Shown here: positions 15 to 41,703 of the stretch, piece by piece | Layout of the letters: each line of letters opens with the position of its first letter | Position numbering within the stretch: position 1 is the stretch's first letter | Assembly: GCA_012838175.1 (NCBI GenBank) | Contig: DUPU01000107.1 | Location: forward strand, 1-57,290 | DNA from: Clostridia bacterium | GTDB lineage: Bacteria > Bacillota > Dehalobacteriia > Dehalobacteriales > Dehalobacteriaceae | DNA length: 57,290 nt | Reading direction: 5' to 3' | Notes under the pieces: generated by a model | The model's input: only the letters and a program-made list of their open reading frames with translations | The model's database searches: none | What the model was told of the DNA's origin: nothing | Program-made: the position numbers and the translations under genes

Positions 15-91
15 TGGGGTGGATGAAGGGATTTGAACCCTCGGGTGCCGGAGCCACAATCCGGTGCGTTAACCGCTTCGCCACATCCACC
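15..91 (-). tRNA. tRNA-His (anticodon GTG)
   Basis: The reverse complement folds as a cloverleaf. Acceptor GTGGATG/CATCCAC, anticodon stem CCGGA/TCCGG with loop TTGTGGC, T-loop GGTTCAAATCC, encoded CCA, and the extra 5' G typical of tRNA-His. Confidence 0.9.
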
Positions 92-117
92 ATAAAGTTT
101 TCGTAACCGCAAAAACA

Positions 118-146
118 ATATTAACAAACCAATAATAAAATGTCAA
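118..146 (-). promoter_or_regulatory. Sigma-A type promoter for tRNA-His (TTGACA-N17-TAATAT)
   Basis: The minus strand reads TTGACA (141-146), a 17-nt spacer, then TAATAT (118-123), about 25 nt upstream of the tRNA-His 5' end. Confidence 0.55.
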
Positions 147-185
147 GGGAACAACATAAACTAATTTTTGATAAATTTCCAGGTT

Positions 186-211
186 AAAAAAGCGCCTTCC
201 AGCGCTTTTTT
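186..211. terminator. Bidirectional rho-independent terminator hairpin between tRNA-Arg and tRNA-His
   Basis: AAAAAAGCGC-CTTCCA-GCGCTTTTTT. A GC stem flanked by an A-run and a T-run. Confidence 0.6.
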
Positions 212-217
212 CTTTTC

Positions 218-294
218 TGGCGCGCCTGAAGGGACTCGAACCCCTGGCACACGGATTAGAAGTCCGTTGCTCTATCCACCTGAGCTACAGGCGC
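218..294 (-). tRNA. tRNA-Arg (anticodon TCT)
   Basis: The reverse complement is GCGCCTGTAGCTCAGGTGGATAGAGC...ACGGA-CTTCTAA-TCCGT...GGTTCGAGTCC...CAGGCGCGCCA, a cloverleaf with encoded CCA. Confidence 0.9.
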
Positions 295-318
295 ATAATA
301 AAACCTTCTAAAAATTAT

Positions 319-392
<74 letters not shown>

Positions 393-6916: not shown

Positions 6917-8215
6917 CTAAAGTTTCCGTTTGTCAGTGACCCGTTTGGCCTTCCCTTCACTACGAGGGAGTTTTTTCGGTTCAACCAAGGTTACCTTGCA
7001 AGATAAGCCCAGAACACTTTCTAACTCATGTTTAATTAAATGCTCCAAATGTTCCAATCCTCTCACCTTATCGGAGAACATCTCATCTGATACCTCCACC
7101 TGTACCTCCAAGGTATCCAAATTATTTTTACGATCTACCACCAAATGGTAATTTGGACTGGCATAACCGCTTTCCAGAAGAACACTTTCCACCTGAGAGG
7201 GAAACACATTGACGCCCCGGATAATCAGCATATCATCACTGCGTCCCATGACCCGGGACATTTTCACATAAGTCCGGCCGCAGGAACATTCCTCCAAATG
7301 CAAGGAGGATAGGTCCCTGGTACGATACCGAATAACAGGAAAACCTTCTTTGGTAATGGTGGTGAATACCAATTCACCTACTTCCCCGTAAGGAAGAACT
7401 TCCCCAGTTTCCGGATTAATAATCTCAGGAATAAAATGATCTTCAAAAACGTGCAGACCGTTTTTCTCGCAGCATTCCATGGCTACCCCAGGACCCATGA
7501 CCTCACTTAAACCGTAAATATCATGAGCGCTTAACCCTAATCTGTCTTCAATCTCTTTTCTCATAGCCTGAGTCCAGGGTTCCGCCCCAAAGATCCCGGC
7601 CTTAAGCTTTATCTCATCTTTTTTTATCCCCAGCTCTTCCATGGTTTCCGCAATAACCAGGGCATAGGAGGGAGTACAGGCCAATGCCGTACTGCCAAAG
7701 TCTTTCATTACCATCACCTGTCTTTTGTTGTTCCCCCCGGAGGTTGGAACAACACAGGCTCCTATCCTTTCCGCCCCATTATGGATGCCTAAGCCGCCGG
7801 TAAATAAACCGTAACCGTAGGAAATCTGGATCACGTCCTGTTTTGTAATCCCAGCAAAGCCTAGAGACCGGGCGGCAAGCTCCGCCCAATTATTCAAATC
7901 CTGGCGGGTATAACCCACCACGATCGGCTTTCCGGTTGTGCCGGAAGATGAATGAATCCGCACAATTTCGCTTAAGGGAGCGGCAAATAAACTATAAGGA
8001 TAGTTGTCTCTTAAATCCGTTTTTACGGTAAAGGGAAGATGGGCTAAATCTTCCAGGGATTGAATGTCATCCGGCTCCACTCCCTTTTCCTGCATAGCCT
8101 TACGGTAATGTGGAACATTATAATATACTCTTTCCACTGTTTGTTTTAAACGTTCCAGTTTTAACTCTTCCAACTCTTCCCGAGGCATACATTCATACTT
8201 CTCATTCCAATACAT
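6917..8215 (-). CDS. paaK: Phenylacetate-CoA ligase (PaaK family aryl-acid adenylating enzyme)
   Basis: [16 protein letters not shown]...[11 protein letters not shown]-binding motif. Length is about 432 aa from the ATG at 8213-8215. The longer track ORF (to 8344) runs into the T-box terminator and is an artefact. Confidence 0.9.
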
Positions 8216-8273
8216 TTTAATCACCCCATGTCCAGTTTTATATTTTTTATATATTTTTATATATTGGTATAAT

Positions 8274-8625
8274 AAAAAAAGCACTTCACGTCTTAAGGGA
8301 CGGAAAGTGCACCGCGGTACCACCCAAATTGGTTTGAAACCCACTCATAAGGTACGGGGTAAGATTCTGTTAAGATAAACAAAAAGCTTTTTGTCTAAGG
8401 ACAAAAAGCACCACCTTAAATCACAAAAGTACAGGGCATCATTACCCGATACCTGTCTTCGCTAACGGGAATACCCGGCACAGGCTACTGCCTTAAGAGA
8501 AAACTCCAAGGGTTCACCCTGCAGTTCAAGAGTGAATTTCTGTTAACTTAACTTTGAAATGCTCTCAGTCTCCGGCATTTCTTCCCTGGAAAAGCATCCG
8601 TTAACATACTTGTCTCTGTCATTAC
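8274..8625 (-). promoter_or_regulatory. T-box riboswitch leader (probable Phe, UUC specifier) with terminator/antiterminator
   Basis: On the minus strand, stem I starts with AGAGA..AGTA (about 8607-8620). The specifier loop reads AGAAATTCA (TTC at 8534-8536, followed by A). The T-box sequence AATTTGGGTGGTACCGCG lies at 8313-8330. The terminator GCACTTTCCGTCCCTTAAGACGTGAAGTGC plus T7 lies at 8274-8310. Confidence 0.85.
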
Positions 8626-8647
8626 TTTTGCCTATAAAATTAGTAAT

Positions 8648-22568: not shown

Positions 22569-23909
22569 TTATATCACGATTACTTGTACCCCGGCTTTTT
22601 CCTCCAATTCTTTATAGGAGCGCCCGGTTAGATCCCTGCCCAGATAATCAAAGGCTTCTCTGGGAAGAAGGATTAATTCCGGCCGATCTTTTATTTCCCG
22701 GTACTCACCATAGGCGGTATAAAAATCATTAATTGTCAACAACCCGGCAGCTCCGATAGAACCGCCAAAAAAATTATTATTTACCGGCTGAATATTTAAG
22801 AGTTCTTTTTGCCTTACGGTTTTTTTCAGAGCTTTTAGGGTATTTTGAGCCAATAGGGAGCACAGCATTACCGCCGGACCGGAAAGCCTTTTTACCATGC
22901 TTTCAATTCTATCCCATCTCTCCATATCAAAATCATATTCCATTACCAGTCCGGACTTTTCATTTCTTTTGTTTTGCCAGGCTAACTCCAGAACCCTGCC
23001 CTCTCGTTCCACTTTTATATGGATTTTTCCCGGTTCCTGAGCCAACTCCCATGCCTCTACCCGGGACCGGGGTATCCGGCCGTTAATATCAAGAATCAGA
23101 TCCCCTCTTTTGATCCCTGCCTGATAGGCTTTTGATCCTCTCAGCGCACCGGCGGTGACAGGTTTTAAATCATTAATCATCGGCGGTTCAAGCAAAAGGG
23201 GACAGGATGCTGTTTCTGCCAGGGGATAAATAAAATCGGCCAGTTCCCGGTGCATTACTTCCGGAATAAATTTAAGCTCTGAGCAGGCATTTTTCCCGTA
23301 TCCCGCCATTAAAATCCTCACAGTTAATGCTCCGCATTGGCAGAGATAATCTATCGTTGTTCTCAGGTCAGCCCAACCCACTAAATGGGGCATGGCCACC
23401 ATGCTCCCATGAAAAGGAATGCCGGCCCGGTGCAAAAGTTCCACACTTTTAATCCCTTTTTCAGCCTGGCCTTCCCTTTCCCCCATTAAGATTTTTCTCC
23501 CTCTGACGGTAGCGCTGTTTAAAGAAACATTAATTTCCACCGGCATTGCTTCCTGCAAAATATGGATCATCCCTCTATTAATCCGGTGGCCGTTGGTGGT
23601 CAGGGAAATCACGGTATGAGGATATTTTTCTCGGATTAATTTTATTATTTGGGGAAATTGGGGATGGGAAAAAGGCTCTCCTTCAATAATGTTTGTCGCG
23701 GATTCGCCTATAACAATTTTTTTATTCCCGTCCAAGAATAACAAAGTCCTTTCCACCTCTTCCAGGGTGCGGGGAGGAATTTCCACAATTCTTACCTGGG
23801 GAGGATTATACCGGTGGCTGCAAAACACACATTTCGCATCACAACGGGAAGTAAGGGGTAAGATATTAAATTCCTGAGCGGAATGCAAAATCAATTGTTC
23901 TGTTTCCAA
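22569..23909 (-). CDS. Radical SAM protein with internal PDZ domain (DUF512-like)
   Basis: 446 aa. CDAKCVFCSH CxxxCxxC motif. PDZ-like segment GSKAYQAGIKRGDLILDINGR. Function unknown. Confidence 0.75.
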   Translation of the reverse strand: METEQLILHSAQEFNILPLTSRCDAKCVFCSHRYNPPQVRIVEIPPRTLEEVERTLLFLDGNKKIVIGESATNIIEGEPFSHPQFPQIIKLIREKYPHTVISLTTNGHRINRGMIHILQEAMPVEINVSLNSATVRGRKILMGEREGQAEKGIKSVELLHRAGIPFHGSMVAMPHLVGWADLRTTIDYLCQCGALTVRILMAGYGKNACSELKFIPEVMHRELADFIYPLAETASCPLLLEPPMINDLKPVTAGALRGSKAYQAGIKRGDLILDINGRIPRSRVEAWELAQEPGKIHIKVEREGRVLELAWQNKRNEKSGLVMEYDFDMERWDRIESMVKRLSGPAVMLCSLLAQNTLKALKKTVRQKELLNIQPVNNNFFGGSIGAAGLLTINDFYTAYGEYREIKDRPELILLPREAFDYLGRDLTGRSYKELEEKAGVQVIVI

Positions 23910-23928: not shown

Positions 23929-24387
23929 TTATTTATTTTTTATAATTTCCTCAATTTCCTCTGCCAAAACCTCTTGGGTTACAATTCCTCCATACTGTTT
24001 AACTACCTGGCCTTTACCGTCAATCAGAATAATTGTGGGTAAAGCTATATACCAAAGCTGAAAATCCTGGGCCAGTTTCGTTACAGCCGAATTGTCCTTA
24101 TCCACATCAATCACCAGAAAAACAACTTCATTTTGATACTGTTCAGAAAGAGCCTGAATCACGGGCTCCATTACCACACAGTCAGGTCAGTACCGGCCGT
24201 AAAATTCTATTAAAATAGGCTTATGGTTATTTATCGCCTCGTCATATATTTCTAAATAATTTTTATCCTCAATACTTTTATCCTCGATATGTCTTCCAGA
24301 CATCAGTTTCCCGGAAGGACGAAAAATAATCACCGCCACCGCCCCCAGGATGAATAAAACCAAAATTACCCTTGTATATTTATTCAT
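23929..24387 (-). CDS. Membrane-anchored thioredoxin-like protein with in-frame TGA (candidate selenocysteine, U-P-D-C redox motif)
   Basis: Track ORFs 24187..24411 and 23929..24177 are in the same frame, separated only by TGA at 24187-24189. The joined sequence reads ...KPILIEFYGRY-U-PDCVVMEPV...LPTIILIDGKG (thioredoxin fold with a cis-Pro loop). A hairpin follows the TGA. Probable start is MNKYTRV (24387), after GGGGAG. A nonsense-mutation pseudogene is the alternative. Confidence 0.6.
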
Positions 24388-24498
24388 TACATTTCTCCCC
24401 ACTATTTCCATAAACAGGTTTTAATGTTAAAACCTATTTATTTATTTCCCCATTAGAACAATATTTTTTCCTTTGTCAAGAGTTAATCAATATTTAAC

Positions 24499-34921: not shown

Positions 34922-35589
34922 ATATACCCTCCTTTCGTCTTTCCGGCCAGCTTCTGCTCATTTTGCAAATTAAACTCTTCTTCCTTAGCACTGGGAGGTA
35001 TAAACAAACACTCGCCGGTACCAATTAAATTTTCTTTCTTCCAGCTTTTCATCTCTTCCAGGGTCTTGAAATGAGCATACTTAAAGACGCTGTTTTCCCG
35101 GACCTCCTCAGACAGATAAAACCGGCCCCAGCTGCTTTCTCTGCTGATCGTACCTACCAGAACCTGACCGCCTTTTTTAACCACCCTGAAAAGTTCATCC
35201 AATGCTTTTTCCGGCTGGGCAATGAATTCAAAGGCCGCCATGGAGAATACCCCATCAAACTGCTCATCTGCAAATTTTAGATTATAAGCATCCATAAGGT
35301 AAAAGTCTATATGGTAGCCTGCCTTCTCGGCCTTTTTGCGTGCAATATCCAACATTTTGTCGGATATGTCAATACCAGTAACTTTACAGCCCATTTCAGC
35401 CAGTTTAATGCTGAAATTTCCGGTACCGCATCCAATGTCAAGTATGTTCATCCCTTTTTCCACCTTGAAAAGCTTAAATGCCAGATCAGTTTCTACCTTA
35501 TCTATAAAGCTTCCTTTGCTGTCTTCATACCACCGGTCATAGGAATCAGCGATTGCATCAAATACAGCCATTTTCTTCCTCCCCTTCAT
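34900..35589 (-). CDS. Class I SAM-dependent methyltransferase
   Basis: 229 aa. Motif I ILDIGCGTGNFS. The start may be M7 (35571). Overlaps the upstream ATPase gene. Confidence 0.85.
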   Translation of the reverse strand: MKGRKKMAVFDAIADSYDRWYEDSKGSFIDKVETDLAFKLFKVEKGMNILDIGCGTGNFSIKLAEMGCKVTGIDISDKMLDIARKKAEKAGYHIDFYLMDAYNLKFADEQFDGVFSMAAFEFIAQPEKALDELFRVVKKGGQVLVGTISRESSWGRFYLSEEVRENSVFKYAHFKTLEEMKSWKKENLIGTGECLFIPPSAKEEEFNLQNEQKLAGKTKGGYICALWRK

Positions 35590-36340
35590 CCAGTAAGCTC
35601 AAAATATGCCTCTTAATACGGTTAAAATTTTCTGTAGTAACTATTTTTCTTTCTCTGGGCTTAGGCAGATCTATGATAATTTCTTCCTTGATCCTGGCCG
35701 GCCTGTTAGATAAAACATAAATCCTATCCGAAAGAAAAACCGCTTCTTCAATATCATGGGTAATAAACAGTATAGATGTCTTCAGGTTCTCTAAAATACC
35801 AAGGAGCCAGCAGTGCATTTTGGAGCGAGTTATCGCGTCAAGCCCGCCAAAAGGCTCATCCAGAAGCATAATATCCCTTGAAAACATATAAGTCCGCAGA
35901 AGAGCCGCTCTCTGCCTCATACCCCCTGAAAGCTGAAAGGGATACTTCTCCTCAAAACCTTCCAGTCCAAAAACTTTAAAATAGTCCTTAACCTTTTCTC
36001 TGGCTTGCTTTTTGCCCTGCCCCTTCAACAAAAAAGGAATGGCCACGTTGTCTATAATCTTTTTCCATGGCATCAAAAGGTCCTTTTGATACATGTAACT
36101 AACTCTTCCTGTCTTCCCGGTATAATTTTTGCCTTCTATGAACACCTCGCCGGCATCAGGCATCACCAGCCCGGAAATAATATTAAAAACAGTGCTTTTT
36201 CCGCTGCCGCTTAAACCAAGAAGGGATACAAACTCAATTTCATATAGCTCAAGGGATACGTCTTCTATCACCGCTGTATCCCCAAAGGTTTTCTTAATAT
36301 TCTTTACCGAGAGCTTCAGATTATCACGGCAGGTATTCAT
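35558..36340 (-). CDS. thiZ: ABC transporter ATP-binding protein (NitT/TauT family; ThiZ-like)
   Basis: 260 aa. Walker A GLSGSGKST, signature LSGGMRQR, Walker B MLLDEP. Confidence 0.85.
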   Translation of the reverse strand: MNTCRDNLKLSVKNIKKTFGDTAVIEDVSLELYEIEFVSLLGLSGSGKSTVFNIISGLVMPDAGEVFIEGKNYTGKTGRVSYMYQKDLLMPWKKIIDNVAIPFLLKGQGKKQAREKVKDYFKVFGLEGFEEKYPFQLSGGMRQRAALLRTYMFSRDIMLLDEPFGGLDAITRSKMHCWLLGILENLKTSILFITHDIEEAVFLSDRIYVLSNRPARIKEEIIIDLPKPRERKIVTTENFNRIKRHILSLLDEGEEENGCI

Positions 36341-37337
36341 TGGTAAATGCCTCTTTTACATCCAATTCTCTTTCTATCAGTCCATTATCATACATCCAGT
36401 TTCCATATGTCTCCCAGACTTCCGTCTTCATTTCTCCCCATCTTGCCGCATCTGCGATATACTCCTCTGCAAGGTATTTCTGACTGGCTACGGCAAGGTT
36501 CTTATCAATTTCAGGAGCAAATTTCAGCAGTGACTCCACCGCTTCTTCCGGGTTGTCTATGGCAAATTCATAACCCTTTGCCGTTGCTCTAAGGAATTTT
36601 TTCACCAGATCCGGATCTTGTTTTATTAAATCTTCATGGGCAATTATTACAGGTGTATAAAAATCCAGTGCCGGTTCCACATCCTGGAGCTTAATAAAGT
36701 TAATCGGAATCCCCCTTATCTCGGCTGCTACGCCATCCCACCCATAATAGATCCAGGCAAAATCAACTTCCTTCTCTGTAGCTGAAAAGAAGTCGGCTGC
36801 ACCTATATCCACCATCTGTACTGTGTTAAAATCAGACCCCGCCTTTTTCATTAACCCTTTAATAATGGCTTCCTCTATCGGAGAACCCCACCCGCCGTAT
36901 TTTTTTCCTGCAAAGTCCGCCGGGCTTTTGATTCCCTTTTCTACCGGTGACGCAAAACCTGATGTATTATGCTGGATAATCGCCGCAATTGCTTTTACCG
37001 GAAGAGGATTGTCCGCTGTTCTGGCATAAGTGACTTGTTCCTGATAGCTGATGCCGAATTCCCCCTGGTTTGCAGCGATAAGATCTGCACTTCCCCCTTC
37101 TGAAGGCTGGATGATATTTACATCCAATCCCTCTTCGGCGTAGTATCCTTTATCCTTTGCCACATACATGCCGGTATGATTTGTATTCGGAACCCAATCC
37201 AAGAGAACGGTCATTTTTCTTAACTCAATCTTTTCCGCTTGCTCATCTTCCTGAGCTTTATTGCCTGAAGTACACCCGGAAAAGATAAAAACTGCCATCA
37301 AAATCATAACAATAATTAACGATAATTTTTTTATCAT
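36324..37337 (-). CDS. thiY: ABC transporter substrate-binding lipoprotein, NMT1/THI5-like (ThiY-like pyrimidine precursor binding)
   Basis: 337 aa. Lipobox FSGC. NMT1/THI5-like sequence (LDWVPNTNHTGMYVA). Lies in a TPP-riboswitch operon. Confidence 0.8.
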   Translation of the reverse strand: MIKKLSLIIVMILMAVFIFSGCTSGNKAQEDEQAEKIELRKMTVLLDWVPNTNHTGMYVAKDKGYYAEEGLDVNIIQPSEGGSADLIAANQGEFGISYQEQVTYARTADNPLPVKAIAAIIQHNTSGFASPVEKGIKSPADFAGKKYGGWGSPIEEAIIKGLMKKAGSDFNTVQMVDIGAADFFSATEKEVDFAWIYYGWDGVAAEIRGIPINFIKLQDVEPALDFYTPVIIAHEDLIKQDPDLVKKFLRATAKGYEFAIDNPEEAVESLLKFAPEIDKNLAVASQKYLAEEYIADAARWGEMKTEVWETYGNWMYDNGLIERELDVKEAFTNEYLP

Positions 37338-37340
37338 ATT

Positions 37341-38150
37341 TTATTGCCTCCCTATATTTTTGTTTAAAAGTTTATGCCAGGGCATTAACAAGTCCTGTAT
37401 CAGAGAAATCCCTTTAAACAGCAACATGCTCATTATCACGATCAACAAAATCACCGCAAACATTTTATCCAGTGCAAAAGAATGCTTTACCCTAAGCATG
37501 TACACTCCCAGGCCTCCCTCACCTCCCAACCATTCCCCTATTACAGCCCCCATGATGCTATAAGTTGCCGCTATCCTCAGCCCGGAAAAGAAGTTAACCA
37601 TGGAAGCAGGAAACTTCAATATCCGGAAAGTTTGCAGCCGGTTAGCACCCATAGATTTCAACATATTCAGCATATCTACATCCACGGAGTTTAATCCGTC
37701 CAACAAACTTATAACTATTGGGAAAAAGCACACCAGTATCACCACAATTACTTTCGGTAACAGGCCGAATCCAAACCAGATGACAAATAGGGGCGCCAAA
37801 GCAATGATCGGTACCGTCTGTGAAACGACTAAAAGAGGATAAACAGCTTTCTTAAGGAGCTTGATGCTGTCCATGAGCACAGCAAGAATCACGGCAAAGC
37901 ATATGGCTATGAAAAATCCGGTAAATGCCTCTTTTAAAGTAATAATAATGTGGGATTTGAGACCGGGCAAAATCTGCACAAAAGTTACTATCGTATCCAA
38001 AGGAGAAGGGAGTATGTACTTCTGCACAATGCCTTGGTCCACCACCACCTGCCACGTTATTAAGAGAATGAACAGGAATAAGGACGGGACCCCTTTAGTT
38101 GCAGCTTGACTGACCTTTTTCCTTGTTTCTGTACTTTCCAACCTTTTCAT
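37341..38150 (-). CDS. thiX: ABC transporter permease (ThiX-like)
   Basis: 269 aa. Multi-TM protein with an EAA-like loop (LKSMGANRLQTFRILKFPA). Confidence 0.8.
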   Translation of the reverse strand: MKRLESTETRKKVSQAATKGVPSLFLFILLITWQVVVDQGIVQKYILPSPLDTIVTFVQILPGLKSHIIITLKEAFTGFFIAICFAVILAVLMDSIKLLKKAVYPLLVVSQTVPIIALAPLFVIWFGFGLLPKVIVVILVCFFPIVISLLDGLNSVDVDMLNMLKSMGANRLQTFRILKFPASMVNFFSGLRIAATYSIMGAVIGEWLGGEGGLGVYMLRVKHSFALDKMFAVILLIVIMSMLLFKGISLIQDLLMPWHKLLNKNIGRQ

Positions 38151-38495: not shown

Positions 38496-38520
38496 ACATT
38501 ACTAAAAGAATAACAATATA

Positions 38521-38603
38521 CTCCCTACGCCGGCATTATCCGTTTCAGGTTTATGGGTCGGAACGTACAGTTCCCTCTCAGCCGGTTGCCCAGCTCCCCA
38601 GGT
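38521..38603 (-). promoter_or_regulatory. TPP (THI-box) riboswitch aptamer
   Basis: The minus strand reads GGGGAGCTGGGCAACCGGCTGAGAGGGAACTGTACGTTCCGACCCATAAACCTGAAACGGATAATGCCGGCGTAGGGAG. It contains the conserved CTGAGA, ACCTGA and GGATAATGCC..CG.AGGGA blocks. Confidence 0.93.
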
Positions 38604-38626
38604 TTTTCTATTATACTTCATCTACC

Positions 38627-39355: not shown

Positions 39356-39675
39356 TTGTAAATAAAAGGAAGTAAATACTTAACCAATTACGAAGGGAAT
39401 TCTTTGTTTGTAGCTGCTGCTATATAGTAGTCAAATCCTTACCCTTCTTTTACTGAATGAATATAAGAGCCAGACAACCCCTTTTATTTACTTTTACATG
39501 AGTCTATCACATAATTTTCCATAGGTCATTATATTATCGCTAAACCCCCTTAAAATAATGAAAAGTCTTCTTTTTTCTTCTGGTTATTCATGGGACGGAA
39601 GAGCCAAGAGAGTAGTATCCCCCATTTTTTTTGGTTATAATAAACTATCATTACTTAATGAAAGGAAGTGATAAA

Positions 39676-41703
39676 ATGACTAATTTACACAGAGTACCCA
39701 ATAGATTGATAAACGAAAAATCCCCGTATTTACTCCAGCATGCTTATAATCCGATAGATTGGTACACCTGGAATAATGAAGCATTTGAAAAAGCTAAAAC
39801 TGAAAATAAGCCGATATTTCTTTCTATCGGTTATTCTACCTGTCATTGGTGCCATGTCATGGAAAGAGAGTCCTTTGAAGATGAGGAAATAGCAGACATA
39901 TTAAATAAACATTTTATTTCCATTAAAGTGGACCGGGAAGAACGCCCGGACATCGACCATATTTATATGACCGTGTGCCAGACCATGACCGGTCATGGGG
40001 GGTGGCCTCTCACCGTGGTAATGACTCCGGATAAAGAACCCTTCTTCTCCGGTACTTATTTCCCTAAAACAGGACGGGGCGGAATGCCCGGCTTGAAGGA
40101 AATTCTCCTTAACATTGCCCGTTTATGGGAAAAGGATAGGCAAAAGGTACTGCACTCAGGCAAGCAAATAACGGAGTCCCTGAAGCATCATTTATCCCGG
40201 GAGCAATCCCCCAGCGAACTGGATGAATCTGTGCTTCATGACGCCTATCGTCAATTGGAGCAGGATTTTGACCCTGTTTACGGCGGTTTTGGCCGGGCAC
40301 CCAAATTCCCCATACCCCACAACTTATATTTTCTCTTACGCTACTGGAAAATATATGGTGAAGAAAAAGCTTTGGAGATGGTGGAGAAAACCTTGAGACA
40401 TATGTTTCAAGGAGGCATTTACGACCATATTGGCTGCGGTTTTTCCCGCTACTCCACTGACGAAAAATGGCTGGTCCCCCATTTTGAAAAAATGCTTTAT
40501 GATAATGCTTTGCTGGCCATAGCTTATCTTGAGGCTTACCAAGCAACAAAGAAGGAGCTATATAAAGAAGTGGCGGAAGAAATCCTTACCTATATCAGGC
40601 GCGATATGGTCTCTCCGGAAGGAGGATTTTACTCTGCAGAGGATGCAGATTCCGAAGGTATTGAAGGAAAATTCTATATTTGGACTCCGGAAGAAGTCAA
40701 GAATATCCTGGGAACAATAGAGGGAGAAGAATTTTGCCGTTTCTACGATATTTCCGACAGAGGCAACTTTGAAGGTAAAAATATTCCTAACCTTATCGGA
40801 AAGGAAAATCTATCCCAAAGAAAGGTTTTTCATGCTCAAAGAAATAAGCTTTTTAACCATAGGGAAAAAAGAATCCATCCATTTAAAGACGACAAAATCC
40901 TTACCTCTTGGAACGGTTTGATGATCGCAGCCATGAGCCTGGCCGGCCGAGTTTTCCGTAATGATATATGGACTAAAACTGCCGCTGAAGGAGCGGATTT
41001 TATCCTGAAGAAATTAAGAAATAAAGACGGCCGGTTATTGGCCCGTTTCAGAAAAGGCGAGGCAGCATATTTGGGTTATATTGATGATTACGCTTTTCTC
41101 ATTTGGGGATTAATTGAGCTTTACCAAGCTGGCTTCGCATCTAAATACCTATTGGAAGCCCTTAAACTATCCCATGACCTCATCCTCCGTTTTGAGGATA
41201 AAGAAAGGGGCGGTTTTTTCCTTTACGGGGATGATGGAGAACACCTGATTGCCCGGCCCAAGGAAGTATATGATGGAGCAACCCCGTCCGGCAATTCTGT
41301 AACCGCTCTTAATTTCCTGCGTTTAGCCCGGCTCACCGGACAGCAGGAATGGGAAGAAAAAGCCCATGCTATTTTTAAGGCCTTGGGGGAAAGTGTAAAA
41401 AGGTATCCGGCAGGGTACACTTTCCTCCTTATGTCATACCTGTTTTCTTTGGGACCAACCCAGGAAATAGTGCTGTCCGGCGATTTGTCCAGTACGGAAG
41501 GTCAAGAGATGATAGATATTCTAAGAACCAGGTTTCTTCCCCACACCATAACTCTCAAAGCGGACCCGGTATTGGCAGAAACTATCCCTTTAGTCAAAGA
41601 ATATCCGTCTAAAGGAAACAAAGCTACAGCCTACATCTGCCACAACTTTTCCTGCCAGGCCCCTACTACCGACCCTGGGGAAATGCTGGGAAAAATTCAA
41701 TAA
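39676..41703 (+). CDS. yyaL: Thioredoxin-domain protein YyaL (DUF255 + six-hairpin glycosidase-like domain)
   Basis: About 675 aa from [28 protein letters not shown] and [10 protein letters not shown] motifs. Confidence 0.9.

What the first reader, a model, noticed from the sequence alone, without database searches (positions are those of the whole stretch)
23929..24411. Candidate selenoprotein: thioredoxin-fold membrane protein with TGA replacing the first Cys of CxxC (U-P-D-C)
Two track ORFs are in the same frame, interrupted only by TGA at 24187-24189 (minus strand). The read-through product has an N-terminal TM anchor, then beta1 PILIEFYGRY, then [TGA]-P-D-C at the exact position of the thioredoxin W-C-x-x-C motif. 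Further on come VVFLVIDVD and the cis-proline loop A-L-P-T-I-I-L-I. Together these make a complete thioredoxin fold, which neither half forms alone.

Beginning 18-19 nt after the UGA the mRNA can form GGAGCC-CGUGAUUCA-GGCUCU, with further CUGU/ACAG pairing outside it. That fits the position and GU-containing apical loop of bacterial SECIS elements. UxxC thioredoxin-like selenoproteins are known in anaerobic Firmicutes and Deltaproteobacteria. This gene would be mis-annotated as two fragments or as a pseudogene.
Basis: partly seen in the sequence, partly recalled or inferred. Interest (0 to 1): 0.75.

Follow-up and report, generated by a model that had tools for sequence, protein, structure and literature searches.

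The report
Membrane-anchored selenocysteine thioredoxin-like gene
The "stop" codon that splits this small gene almost certainly encodes selenocysteine, giving one membrane-anchored thioredoxin-like redox protein of a well-known type that genome annotation routinely cuts in two.

Summary
One minus-strand reading frame (most likely 24387..23929, 152 codons) has a single in-frame TGA at 24189-24187. That codon sits where thioredoxins carry the first Cys of WCxxC. The read-through product matches Pfam Thioredoxin (5.5e-16); neither half forms the fold alone.

- The TGA is kept in six near-identical assemblies and at the same codon in every relative inspected, down to 38% identity.
- A motif scan that allowed Cys, Sec or Trp codons found 56 distinct TGA-containing sequences, mainly Desulfosporosinus, Syntrophomonadaceae and Thermincola.
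- dN/dS is well below 1 on both sides of the TGA, with dS above 1.
- In those 56 sequences the synonymous sites 18-41 nt after the TGA are frozen (AUG GAG CCC GUG NUN NNG GCU CU). They are free in 54 Cys-containing controls with the same peptide motif.
- The hairpin meets all four published bacterial SECIS criteria.

Relatives are fused to, or followed by, a CcdA membrane electron carrier. This suggests a CcdA-reduced thiol-disulfide reductase on the outer face of the membrane.

Not shown: selA/B/C/D in this genome and selenium incorporation. UxxC thioredoxin-fold selenoproteins are already known, so this is a new member of a known kind, and public records truncate it.

The parts
23929..24387 (-). 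Complete read-through gene: 152 codons including Sec at codon 67, with TAA stop at 23931-23929. It encodes an N-terminal membrane anchor, a linker and a thioredoxin-fold domain.
   Evidence: Searches give the frame. One search gives Pfam Thioredoxin 5.5e-16. Searches show orthologs starting at the equivalent MNKY/MxK and dN/dS below 1 on both sides of the TGA.
24187..24189 (-). In-frame UGA, proposed selenocysteine codon (residue 67), at the position of the N-terminal nucleophilic Cys of CxxC.
   Evidence: aligned to the first Cys of WCGPC in PDB thioredoxins; TGA at this codon in all relatives inspected.
24178..24189 (-). U-P-D-C redox motif (TGA CCT GAC TGT).
   Evidence: The family consensus is U-x-x-C with an invariant second Cys.
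24149..24169 (-). SECIS upper stem-loop GGAGCC-CGUGAUUCA-GGCUCU. It lies 17 nt after the UGA and overlaps codons M-E-P-V-I-Q-A-L.
   Evidence: MFE is -8.2 kcal/mol. In 56 distinct TGA-containing sequences, 53 form all 6 pairs, against 1 of 54 Cys controls. Third-codon-position entropy is about 0 here and 0.9-1.95 bit in flanking codons and controls. RNAalifold gives the same helix, with 2 pairs showing compensatory changes. All four bSECIS model criteria are met.
24138..24182 (-). Extended hairpin with a lower stem ACUGU/ACAGU. It is present in this window but not conserved in orthologs.
   Evidence: -14.5 kcal/mol, z -2.0. The lower stem is absent in L076 (sequences).
24322..24369 (-). Hydrophobic N-terminal segment VILVLFILGAVAVIIF (residues 7-22): a signal-anchor or transmembrane helix.
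   Evidence: Read directly from the sequence. It is conserved in all family members. Its orientation is inferred, not tested.
24037..24039 (-). Proline 117, the presumed cis-Pro of the thioredoxin fold. In this organism it is preceded by a 2-residue insertion (A-L) that is absent from all orthologs.
   Evidence: Alignments. The proline column is invariant.
24395..24400 (-). Shine-Dalgarno-like GGGGAG, 7 nt upstream of ATG 24387.
   Evidence: Read from the sequence.

Best explanation
This is a single gene for a selenoprotein: a small, membrane-anchored protein of the thioredoxin fold whose active site is U-P-D-C.

Inferred mechanism:
- During translation, the UGA at 24189-24187 is read as selenocysteine by SelB carrying Sec-tRNA(Sec).
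- SelB is recruited by the stem-loop GGAGCC-CGUGAUUCA-GGCUCU, which lies 17 nt downstream inside the coding sequence. That RNA requirement is why the peptide M-E-P-V-x-x-A-L and its codons are frozen across the family.
- The N-terminal hydrophobic helix anchors the protein in the membrane, with the Trx domain on the outer face.
- There the selenolate acts as the attacking nucleophile of a thiol-disulfide reductase.
- The protein is probably kept reduced by a CcdA/DsbD-type membrane electron carrier, which relatives carry fused or adjacent.

Shown here: the frame, the fold, conservation of the TGA, purifying selection on both sides of it, nucleotide-level conservation and model fit of the hairpin, and the genetic linkage of relatives to CcdA.

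Inferred only: actual Sec insertion, membrane topology, the CcdA partner in this organism, and the substrate.
For: (1) One frame with one TGA; the full thioredoxin domain appears only on read-through. The U aligns with the first Cys of WCGPC.

(2) The TGA is kept in six independent near-identical assemblies, including the NCBI MAG GCA_046128195.1.

(3) The TGA is at the same codon in:
- L076 (FYGRY-U-PDC)
- L008 (FYSRY-U-AEC)
- L012 (FYGDN-U-PTC)
- L134 (FYGAS-U-PSC)
- L135 (FTFW-U-LDC)
- L136 (FYADW-U-GAC)
.

(4) A genome-wide scan for [TGN]xxCxxMEPVxxAL did not require TGA. It gave 56 distinct TGA-containing sequences, nearly all from Bacillota (the MAGs labelled Desulfovibrionaceae and Limnocylindrales are the exceptions). 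The Cys forms were almost all in other phyla.

(5) dN/dS is about 0.13-0.55 both upstream and downstream of the TGA, with dS of 1.0-2.0.

(6) Synonymous sites of codons +7 to +12 are frozen: GAG 56/56, CCC 52/56, GTG 56/56, NNG 56/56, GCT 53/56. They vary in flanking codons and in 54 Cys controls. The stem is fully paired in 53/56 Sec sequences against 1/54 Cys controls.

(7) RNAalifold recovers the helix. Divergent members show compensatory changes (A-U to G-C or C-G; G-C to U.G) and GU-containing apical loops.

(8) The bSECIS model is met: loop 3-9 nt, stem 4-16 bp, G in the first two loop positions, 16-37 nt spacing, MFE <= -7.5 kcal/mol. Here the values are a 9-nt loop CGUGAUUCA, 6 bp, G at position 2 followed by U, 23 nt, and -8.2 kcal/mol.

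(9) TGA is an ordinary stop elsewhere in the window, closing 12 of 41 long frames.

(10) Carriers of the family include a genus documented to decode Sec: Desulfosporosinus orientis has 2 tRNA-Sec genes and 13 selenoproteins (PMC5330540).

(11) 29 relatives are Trx(U)-DsbD_TM fusions (Pfam 6.8e-30). At least 8 stand-alone relatives are followed directly by ccdA.
Against: - No selA, selB, selD or tRNA-Sec was found in the 57-kb window, or in about 10 kb beyond one end and about 8 kb beyond the other. The trait is therefore unverified for this genome.
- No ccdA is present in the window. This subclade sits next to a DUF512 radical-SAM gene instead, so the CcdA partnership is extrapolated from relatives.
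- Thermodynamic z-scores of the hairpin are modest (-0.7 to -2.0). They do not separate Sec from Cys sequences.
- The main stem is almost invariant, so covariation support rests on three divergent members, two of which use a register shifted by one base.
- This organism's copy has a 2-residue insertion next to the cis-Pro that no ortholog has.
- There are no expression or selenium-labelling data.
Confidence: 0.88

Rival explanations
1. Pseudogene: a thioredoxin-like gene inactivated by a recent Cys(TGY)-to-TGA nonsense mutation.
For: TGT/TGC to TGA is a single-base change. Gene callers split the gene. The copy has an odd 2-residue insertion at the cis-Pro loop.
Against: The same TGA is present in 56 distinct sequences of the family, in relatives down to about 32% identity, and in six strain-level assemblies. 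dN/dS is well below 1 downstream of the TGA, with saturated dS. Synonymous sites are frozen in a hairpin.
Confidence: 0.03
2. UGA terminates normally. The locus yields a 66-residue membrane peptide and, by re-initiation at the conserved AUG of M-E-P-V, a separate 77-82-residue protein. The conserved hairpin would serve translational coupling or regulation.
For: An AUG five codons after the TGA is present in nearly all members (L136 has GTG). Databases hold many 72-82-residue 'MEPV...' proteins. In Desulfosporosinus the 302-residue product is annotated as CcdA.
Against: Neither piece forms a thioredoxin fold; the N-terminal piece has no Pfam match. Cys-containing relatives such as P0006 (WCGACVMMEPV) and those in other phyla are continuous proteins with the same Met, so the Met belongs to the fold. 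There is no Shine-Dalgarno sequence before that AUG (GUGUGGUAAUG). The 'fragment' entries are gene-caller output, not evidence of products.
Confidence: 0.04
3. UGA is recoded, but not to selenocysteine: for example near-cognate read-through inserting Trp or Cys, or a reassigned genetic code.
For: The Sec machinery is not demonstrated for this genome.
Against: TGA closes 12 of 41 long frames in the window, so the code is standard. The aligned residue in homologs is Cys, the usual Sec counterpart. The downstream element matches the SelB-type bSECIS model in position and loop sequence. The family occurs in a documented Sec-using genus.
Confidence: 0.04
4. Sequencing or assembly error creating a false stop.
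For: None specific.
Against: The same TGA is seen in assemblies from six different samples and sources and in many species.
Confidence: 0.01

Closest known systems
Sec-containing thioredoxin (Pfam PF00085, UxxC; e.g. Treponema denticola Trx, listed in PMC13188914 and PMC9312934; 'thioredoxin' selenoproteins of Carboxydothermus, Geobacter and Anaeromyxobacter in PMC1794560)
   Same: Thioredoxin fold. Sec replaces the first Cys of CxxC. The bacterial SECIS lies inside the coding sequence just after the UGA. Found in anaerobes.
   Different: The window protein has an N-terminal membrane anchor and a 45-residue linker. Its motif is Y-U-P-D-C rather than W-C-G-P-C. It scores below the TrxA equivalog cut-off (TIGR01068: 56.4 against 96.8 bits). 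Its relatives are linked to CcdA, which points to an extracytoplasmic rather than cytosolic role.
'Thiol:disulfide interchange protein' selenoprotein family (PF13098, UxxC; Kryukov & Gladyshev 2004 as tabulated in PMC13188914; found in Syntrophus and Geobacter, PMC1794560)
   Same: UxxC Trx-like oxidoreductase predicted by Sec/Cys pairing. The window protein also matches PF13098 (3e-10). One family member lies in a Desulfovibrionaceae MAG (L048).
   Different: I could not obtain the reference sequence (WP_011366075.1) to test whether it is the same family. The published occurrences are deltaproteobacterial, whereas this clade is overwhelmingly Bacillota.
CcdA-dependent extracytoplasmic thiol-disulfide oxidoreductases of Firmicutes (ResA, StoA) and DsbD/ScsB-type Trx-CcdA fusions
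   Same: A single N-terminal anchor followed by a Trx domain. Genetic fusion or adjacency to a DsbD_TM/CcdA domain in relatives. Weak profile similarity: ResA 3.3e-11, DsbD 8.5e-7, StoA 1e-5.
   Different: Those proteins use Cys. The window protein is below every curated cut-off (ResA 43 against 170 bits; StoA 25.5 against 210; DsbD 28 against 330). No ccdA is nearby in this window.
TsoB, rhodanese/DsbD fusion-like selenoprotein (NCBIfam NF045694)
   Same: The only curated selenoprotein model that the window protein touches. The match is to TsoB's C-terminal thioredoxin-like region.
   Different: 32.6 bits against a cut-off of 805. The architecture (rhodanese plus DsbD) and the motif (UxxxxU) are different. 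Not a member.

Membership tests
Thioredoxin-fold superfamily (Pfam PF00085 Thioredoxin) | Profile match above the gathering score across the domain | tested here: met
   58.9 bits against a 23.5 cut-off, residues 55-154, profile positions 9-102 of 103. PDB thioredoxins match at up to 7.6e-12.
Thioredoxin-fold superfamily (Pfam PF00085 Thioredoxin) | CxxC-type redox motif at the N-terminus of helix 1, and a conserved cis-Pro loop | tested here: met
   U-P-D-C aligns with C-G-P-C. The proline column is invariant in the family alignment. Here it is preceded by a 2-residue insertion.
Bacterial selenoprotein gene (SelB/SECIS-dependent UGA recoding) | In-frame UGA aligned with Cys in homologs (Sec/Cys pair) | tested here: met
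   The Cys forms P0006, P0013 and P0016, plus 54 TGY sequences, share the motif at that column.
Bacterial selenoprotein gene (SelB/SECIS-dependent UGA recoding) | UGA and coding sequence conserved on both sides across species | tested here: met
   56 distinct TGA-containing sequences plus L134-L136. dN/dS is 0.13-0.55 upstream and downstream.
Bacterial selenoprotein gene (SelB/SECIS-dependent UGA recoding) | bSECIS model: 3-9 nt apical loop, 4-16 bp stem, G in the first two loop positions, 16-37 nt from the UGA, MFE <= -7.5 kcal/mol (PMC13188914) | tested here: met
   9-nt loop CGUGAUUCA, 6-bp stem, G at loop position 2 followed by U, 23 nt of spacing, -8.2 kcal/mol. Synonymous sites are frozen against the Cys controls.
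Bacterial selenoprotein gene (SelB/SECIS-dependent UGA recoding) | selA, selB, selC (tRNA-Sec) and selD present in the same genome | not testable with these tools
   None was found in the window or in about 10 kb beyond one end and about 8 kb beyond the other. The related carrier genus Desulfosporosinus is a documented Sec user.
Bacterial selenoprotein gene (SelB/SECIS-dependent UGA recoding) | Selenium actually incorporated at the UGA position | not testable with these tools
   Needs 75Se labelling or mass spectrometry.
Canonical thioredoxin TrxA (NCBIfam TIGR01068) | Score above the equivalog cut-off | tested here: not met
   56.4 bits against 96.8. It also has an N-terminal anchor and lacks WCGPC.
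ResA / StoA / DsbE-type CcdA-dependent oxidoreductases | Score above the curated cut-offs | tested here: not met
   ResA 43.4 against 170; StoA 25.5 against 210; DsbE 26.2 against 123. The resemblance is in architecture and in the CcdA linkage of relatives only.
Curated thioredoxin-like selenoprotein models (TsoB NF045694; SaoT NF040730; HUIPC NF047660) | Score above the model cut-off | tested here: not met
   TsoB 32.6 against 805. SaoT and HUIPC gave no hit at E <= 1e-3.

The most novel reading that the evidence does not exclude
The gene may belong to a large clade of extracytoplasmic, CcdA-coupled selenocysteine thioredoxins in anaerobic spore-forming Bacillota that has not been described as such and is absent from curated annotation. 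The clade includes Trx(U)-CcdA fusions that all public records truncate to a 302-residue 'CcdA'. A nearly invariant 21-nt SECIS dictates the protein motif M-E-P-V-x-x-A-L. That would make it a selenium-dependent entry point of the membrane disulfide-reduction relay.
Probability: 0.35. Interest if true: 0.5.

Novelty: new member of a known kind. Interest (0 to 1): 0.4.

Why it matters
The practical value is for annotation. The gene is split or truncated in every public record I could see. The fused relatives in cultured Desulfosporosinus species are annotated as CcdA proteins that lack their whole thioredoxin domain.

Biologically, it would place a selenocysteine at the nucleophilic position of an extracytoplasmic, CcdA-linked reductase in many anaerobic Bacillota. 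Envelope disulfide reduction (cytochrome maturation, sporulation or similar) would then depend on selenium in those organisms.

The frozen-codon signature (AUGGAGCCCGUG-N6-GGCUCU) is also a simple, specific DNA tag for finding family members.

It does not change what is known about how selenoproteins work.

Tried and rejected
- The search for homologous proteins returned nothing for the read-through protein or for a Desulfovibrionaceae-type member. The word index seems blind to these short, split proteins. I therefore could not test identity with the published 'thiol:disulfide interchange protein' selenoprotein.
I used the 85-residue post-UGA piece instead.
- The search for related loci found nothing in viral contigs or in genome contigs when the N-terminal patterns were used. 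Alignments A1 and A3 were too diverse for it. A hand-made IUPAC pattern worked.
- Rfam shows nothing at the hairpin, so no curated RNA family matched the element. The only weak hit nearby, a ylbH leader at 16 bits against a cut-off of 50, I take as chance.
- MFE z-scores do not discriminate Sec from Cys sequences. I dropped thermodynamics as the main argument in favour of synonymous-site conservation.
- Searches for sel genes, tRNA-Sec or other selenoprotein genes were all negative. This covered the window, about 10 kb beyond one end and about 8 kb beyond the other, and 136 fetched loci.
- One end-of-window look-up found no record.
- A search for ccdA in the window was negative.
- I considered and rejected the pseudogene, split-gene, alternative-code and sequencing-error readings. 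See the rival explanations.

Full report
**1. The observation**

On the minus strand the frame starting at 24411 runs to TAA at 23931-23929. It has a single internal stop, TGA at 24189-24187. The two pieces are the ORFs 24187..24411 (74 aa) and 23929..24177 (82 aa) in the mechanical ORF list.

With Cys written for the stop, the product matches Pfam Thioredoxin at 5.5e-16 over residues 55-154, which is profile positions 9-102 of 103. The downstream piece alone gives 1.5e-6 and the upstream piece gives nothing. phmmer against PDB puts the stop on the first Cys of WCGPC.

The real start is probably ATG 24387 (MNKYTR...):
- GGGGAG lies 7 nt upstream of it.
- The ortholog in L008 has a stop codon two codons before the equivalent ATG.
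- The only amino-acid difference among near-identical strains falls in the eight extra codons.

**2. Is the TGA real and conserved?**

Exact-protein look-up of the neighbouring radical-SAM gene returned seven places. Six of them cover the locus (five Logan assemblies and the NCBI MAG GCA_046128195.1). All six keep the TGA, with 1-2 substitutions elsewhere in the gene.

An exhaustive HMMER search with the 85 residues after the TGA found 59 relatives. Many are 72-82-residue proteins that begin M-E-P-V or M-A-P-V, exactly five residues after the TGA position. That is the signature of gene callers restarting after a stop.

I fetched the DNA for five of them. Every one has TGA at the same codon in a continuous anchor-plus-thioredoxin frame:

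| Locus | Identity to window | Sequence around the TGA |
|---|---|---|
| L008 | 64% | FYSRY-TGA-AECVDMEPV |
| L012 | 51% | FYGDN-TGA-PTCVVMEPV |
| L134 | 38% | FYGAS-TGA-PSCVTMRPV |
| L135 | 34% | FTFW-TGA-LDCQRMAPV |
| L136 | 32% | FYADW-TGA-GACREVAPV |

**3. A wider, less biased sample**

I scanned one genome per GTDB species for the DNA pattern of [TGN]-x-x-Cys-x-x-M-E-P-V-(hydrophobic)-x-A-L. This pattern allows Cys, Sec or Trp codons at the first position.

- 56 distinct sequences carry TGA, all inside Trx-like frames (...EFYA[KR]W-U-xxC...). They come from Desulfosporosinus (12 species-level genomes), many Syntrophomonadaceae MAGs, Thermincola ferriacetica, Desulfitispora alkaliphila and unclassified Bacillota.
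- One of these is the closest ortholog, L076 (FIEFYGRY-U-PDCVIMEPVIQALSEKY).
- 54 distinct sequences carry TGC or TGT. They are mostly from Bacteroidota, Proteobacteria, Myxococcota and Actinomycetota.

**4. Selection**

Against L076, L008, L012 and L134, dN/dS is 0.22, 0.14, 0.29 and 0.55 upstream of the TGA. Downstream it is 0.13, 0.20, 0.20 and 0.25. dS is between 1.0 and 2.0.

Both halves are therefore translated and constrained, across a divergence at which an unselected stop would not survive.

TGA is an ordinary stop elsewhere in the window: it closes 12 of 41 frames of at least 200 codons. A reassigned code is not the explanation.

**5. The RNA element**

The hairpin GGAGCC-CGUGAUUCA-GGCUCU lies at 24169..24149, starting 17 nt after the UGA. 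Its energy is -8.2 kcal/mol alone and -14.5 with the lower stem. The z-scores are only -2.0 and -2.0, and folding energies do not separate Sec from Cys sequences.

The decisive evidence is at synonymous sites:
- In the 56 distinct TGA-containing sequences, the codons for E, P, V, the residue at +11 and A are GAG (56/56), CCC (52/56), GTG (56/56), NNG (56/56) and GCT (53/56).
- Third-position entropy at those codons is 0-0.4 bit.
- In the flanking codons of the same sequences, and at these same codons in the 54 Cys controls that encode the same peptide motif, it is 0.9-1.95 bit.
- All six stem pairs form in 53/56 Sec sequences, against 1/54 Cys sequences.

RNAalifold on 22 diverse members returns exactly this helix. 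Two pairs show changes on both sides: A-U to G-C or C-G, and G-C to U.G. The three divergent members each have their own hairpin at the same place, with GU(G/U/A) in the apical loop.

The element fits the published bacterial SECIS model (PMC13188914) on every criterion:

| Criterion | Model | Here |
|---|---|---|
| Apical loop | 3-9 nt | 9 nt |
| Stem | 4-16 bp | 6 bp |
| G in first two loop positions | required | position 2, followed by U |
| UGA to loop | 16-37 nt | 23 nt |
| MFE | <= -7.5 kcal/mol | -8.2 kcal/mol |

**6. What the protein probably does**

All members have one N-terminal hydrophobic helix, a variable linker and the Trx domain.

- In 29 of the fetched loci, the Trx domain is fused to a roughly 230-residue C-terminal domain. 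This domain is Pfam DsbD_TM/CcdA (6.8e-30) and carries the two conserved Cys motifs.
- In at least eight stand-alone loci, a separate ccdA gene follows directly.

CcdA/DsbD proteins pass reducing equivalents from cytoplasmic thioredoxin to Trx-like proteins on the outer face of the membrane. This is established for ResA/StoA in Bacillus and for DsbD in E. coli, and I state it from general knowledge.

The most likely role is therefore an extracytoplasmic, CcdA-reduced thiol-disulfide reductase in which Sec is the attacking nucleophile.

In this window the partner is not nearby: there is no CcdA-like ORF in 57 kb. The window's subclade instead keeps the order tsaD - Sec-Trx - (DUF512/PDZ radical-SAM) - 5-formyl-THF cyclo-ligase. 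This order is also seen in L012, L076 (which lacks the radical-SAM gene) and L134. Only 19 nt and no terminator-like site separate the gene from the radical-SAM gene. The substrate is unknown.

**7. What is not shown**

No tRNA-Sec, selA, selB or selD is present in the window, or in about 10 kb beyond one end and about 8 kb beyond the other. The rest of the genome cannot be reached with these tools.

The organism is a spore-forming, flagellated member of Bacillota (PrkA, YhbH, SpoVR and CwlD-like proteins; flagellar and chemotaxis genes). Its closest named relative is only 'Bacillota bacterium'.

Sec use is documented in one carrier genus: Desulfosporosinus orientis has two tRNA-Sec genes and 13 selenoproteins (PMC5330540).

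**8. Comparison with what is known**

UxxC selenoproteins of the thioredoxin fold are long established. These include thioredoxin, 'thiol:disulfide interchange protein', and DsbA-, DsbG- and Prx-like proteins. They occur in anaerobic Firmicutes and Deltaproteobacteria (PMC1794560; PMC13188914 and PMC9312934).

The window protein passes the Pfam thioredoxin test. It fails the curated cut-offs for TrxA, ResA, StoA, DsbE and DsbD, and for the selenoprotein models TsoB, SaoT and HUIPC.

Public annotation does not recognise the family. The 120 best database matches to the fused Desulfosporosinus protein all start after the UxxC, at about 302 residues and 81% coverage. They are named 'cytochrome c biogenesis protein CcdA'.

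I could not test whether the clade equals the published 'thiol:disulfide interchange protein' selenoprotein.

**9. Verdict**

- The selenoprotein interpretation is well supported (about 0.88).
- The kind is known, so this is a new, currently mis-annotated member rather than a new system.
- Interest is moderate-low (0.4). The value lies in correcting annotation and in the CcdA-linked, probably extracytoplasmic setting of the Sec residue.

Noticed in passing
window 8293-8631 (-), upstream of 6917-8344 (-): A T-box leader (95.6 bits, just above the gathering score of 93) sits in front of a PaaK-like phenylacetate-CoA ligase (3.4e-180), not an aminoacyl-tRNA synthetase. An ACT-domain protein gene follows.
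   Followed up: no
window 38505-38610 (-): A TPP riboswitch lies upstream of an ABC transporter operon: an SsuA-like binding protein (36324-37337), a permease (37341-38150) and an ATPase (35558-36340). This is probably a thiamine-precursor uptake system.
   Followed up: no
window 24040-24045 (-), residues A115-L116: This organism's Sec-Trx has a 2-residue insertion (Y-I-A-L-P-T against Y-I-P-T) immediately before the invariant cis-Pro. The insertion is absent from every ortholog and present in all near-identical strains. Its effect on the active-site loop is unknown.
   Followed up: partly
L018, L025, L029, L031, L033, L036, L058, L072 and others (Desulfosporosinus); L024, L041, L044 and others (Syntrophomonadaceae): Trx(UxxC)-CcdA fusion selenoproteins of about 370-420 residues are annotated in NCBI, JGI and ENA as roughly 302-residue 'cytochrome c biogenesis protein CcdA'. 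The annotated proteins start at the Met after the UxxC, so the entire thioredoxin domain and the anchor are lost.
   Followed up: partly
window 22569-23909 (-): A radical-SAM/PDZ/DUF512 protein of unknown function starts (TTG) 19 nt after the Sec-Trx stop. It stays adjacent to the Sec-Trx in relatives down to 38% identity (L134). A functional link is possible but was not tested.
   Followed up: partly
window 39631-41703 (+): A 690-residue DUF255/Thioredox_DsbH protein (YyaL-like, 1.4e-80). It is a second thioredoxin-fold protein in the window. Its weak hit to the TsoB selenoprotein model only reflects the shared Trx-like domain.
   Followed up: partly
L141 11960-11976: In one JGI contig the flagellar rod gene is cut after 32 residues and joined to the BcrAD/HGD-D region, which lies about 50 kb away in the window. 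This is either an assembly chimera or a strain rearrangement.
   Followed up: no
window 15-392 (-): A tRNA-His, tRNA-Arg(TCT) and tRNA-Gly(TCC) cluster sits at the window edge, followed in related contigs by tig-clpP-clpX-lonB-lon. There is no tRNA-Sec among them.
   Followed up: yes
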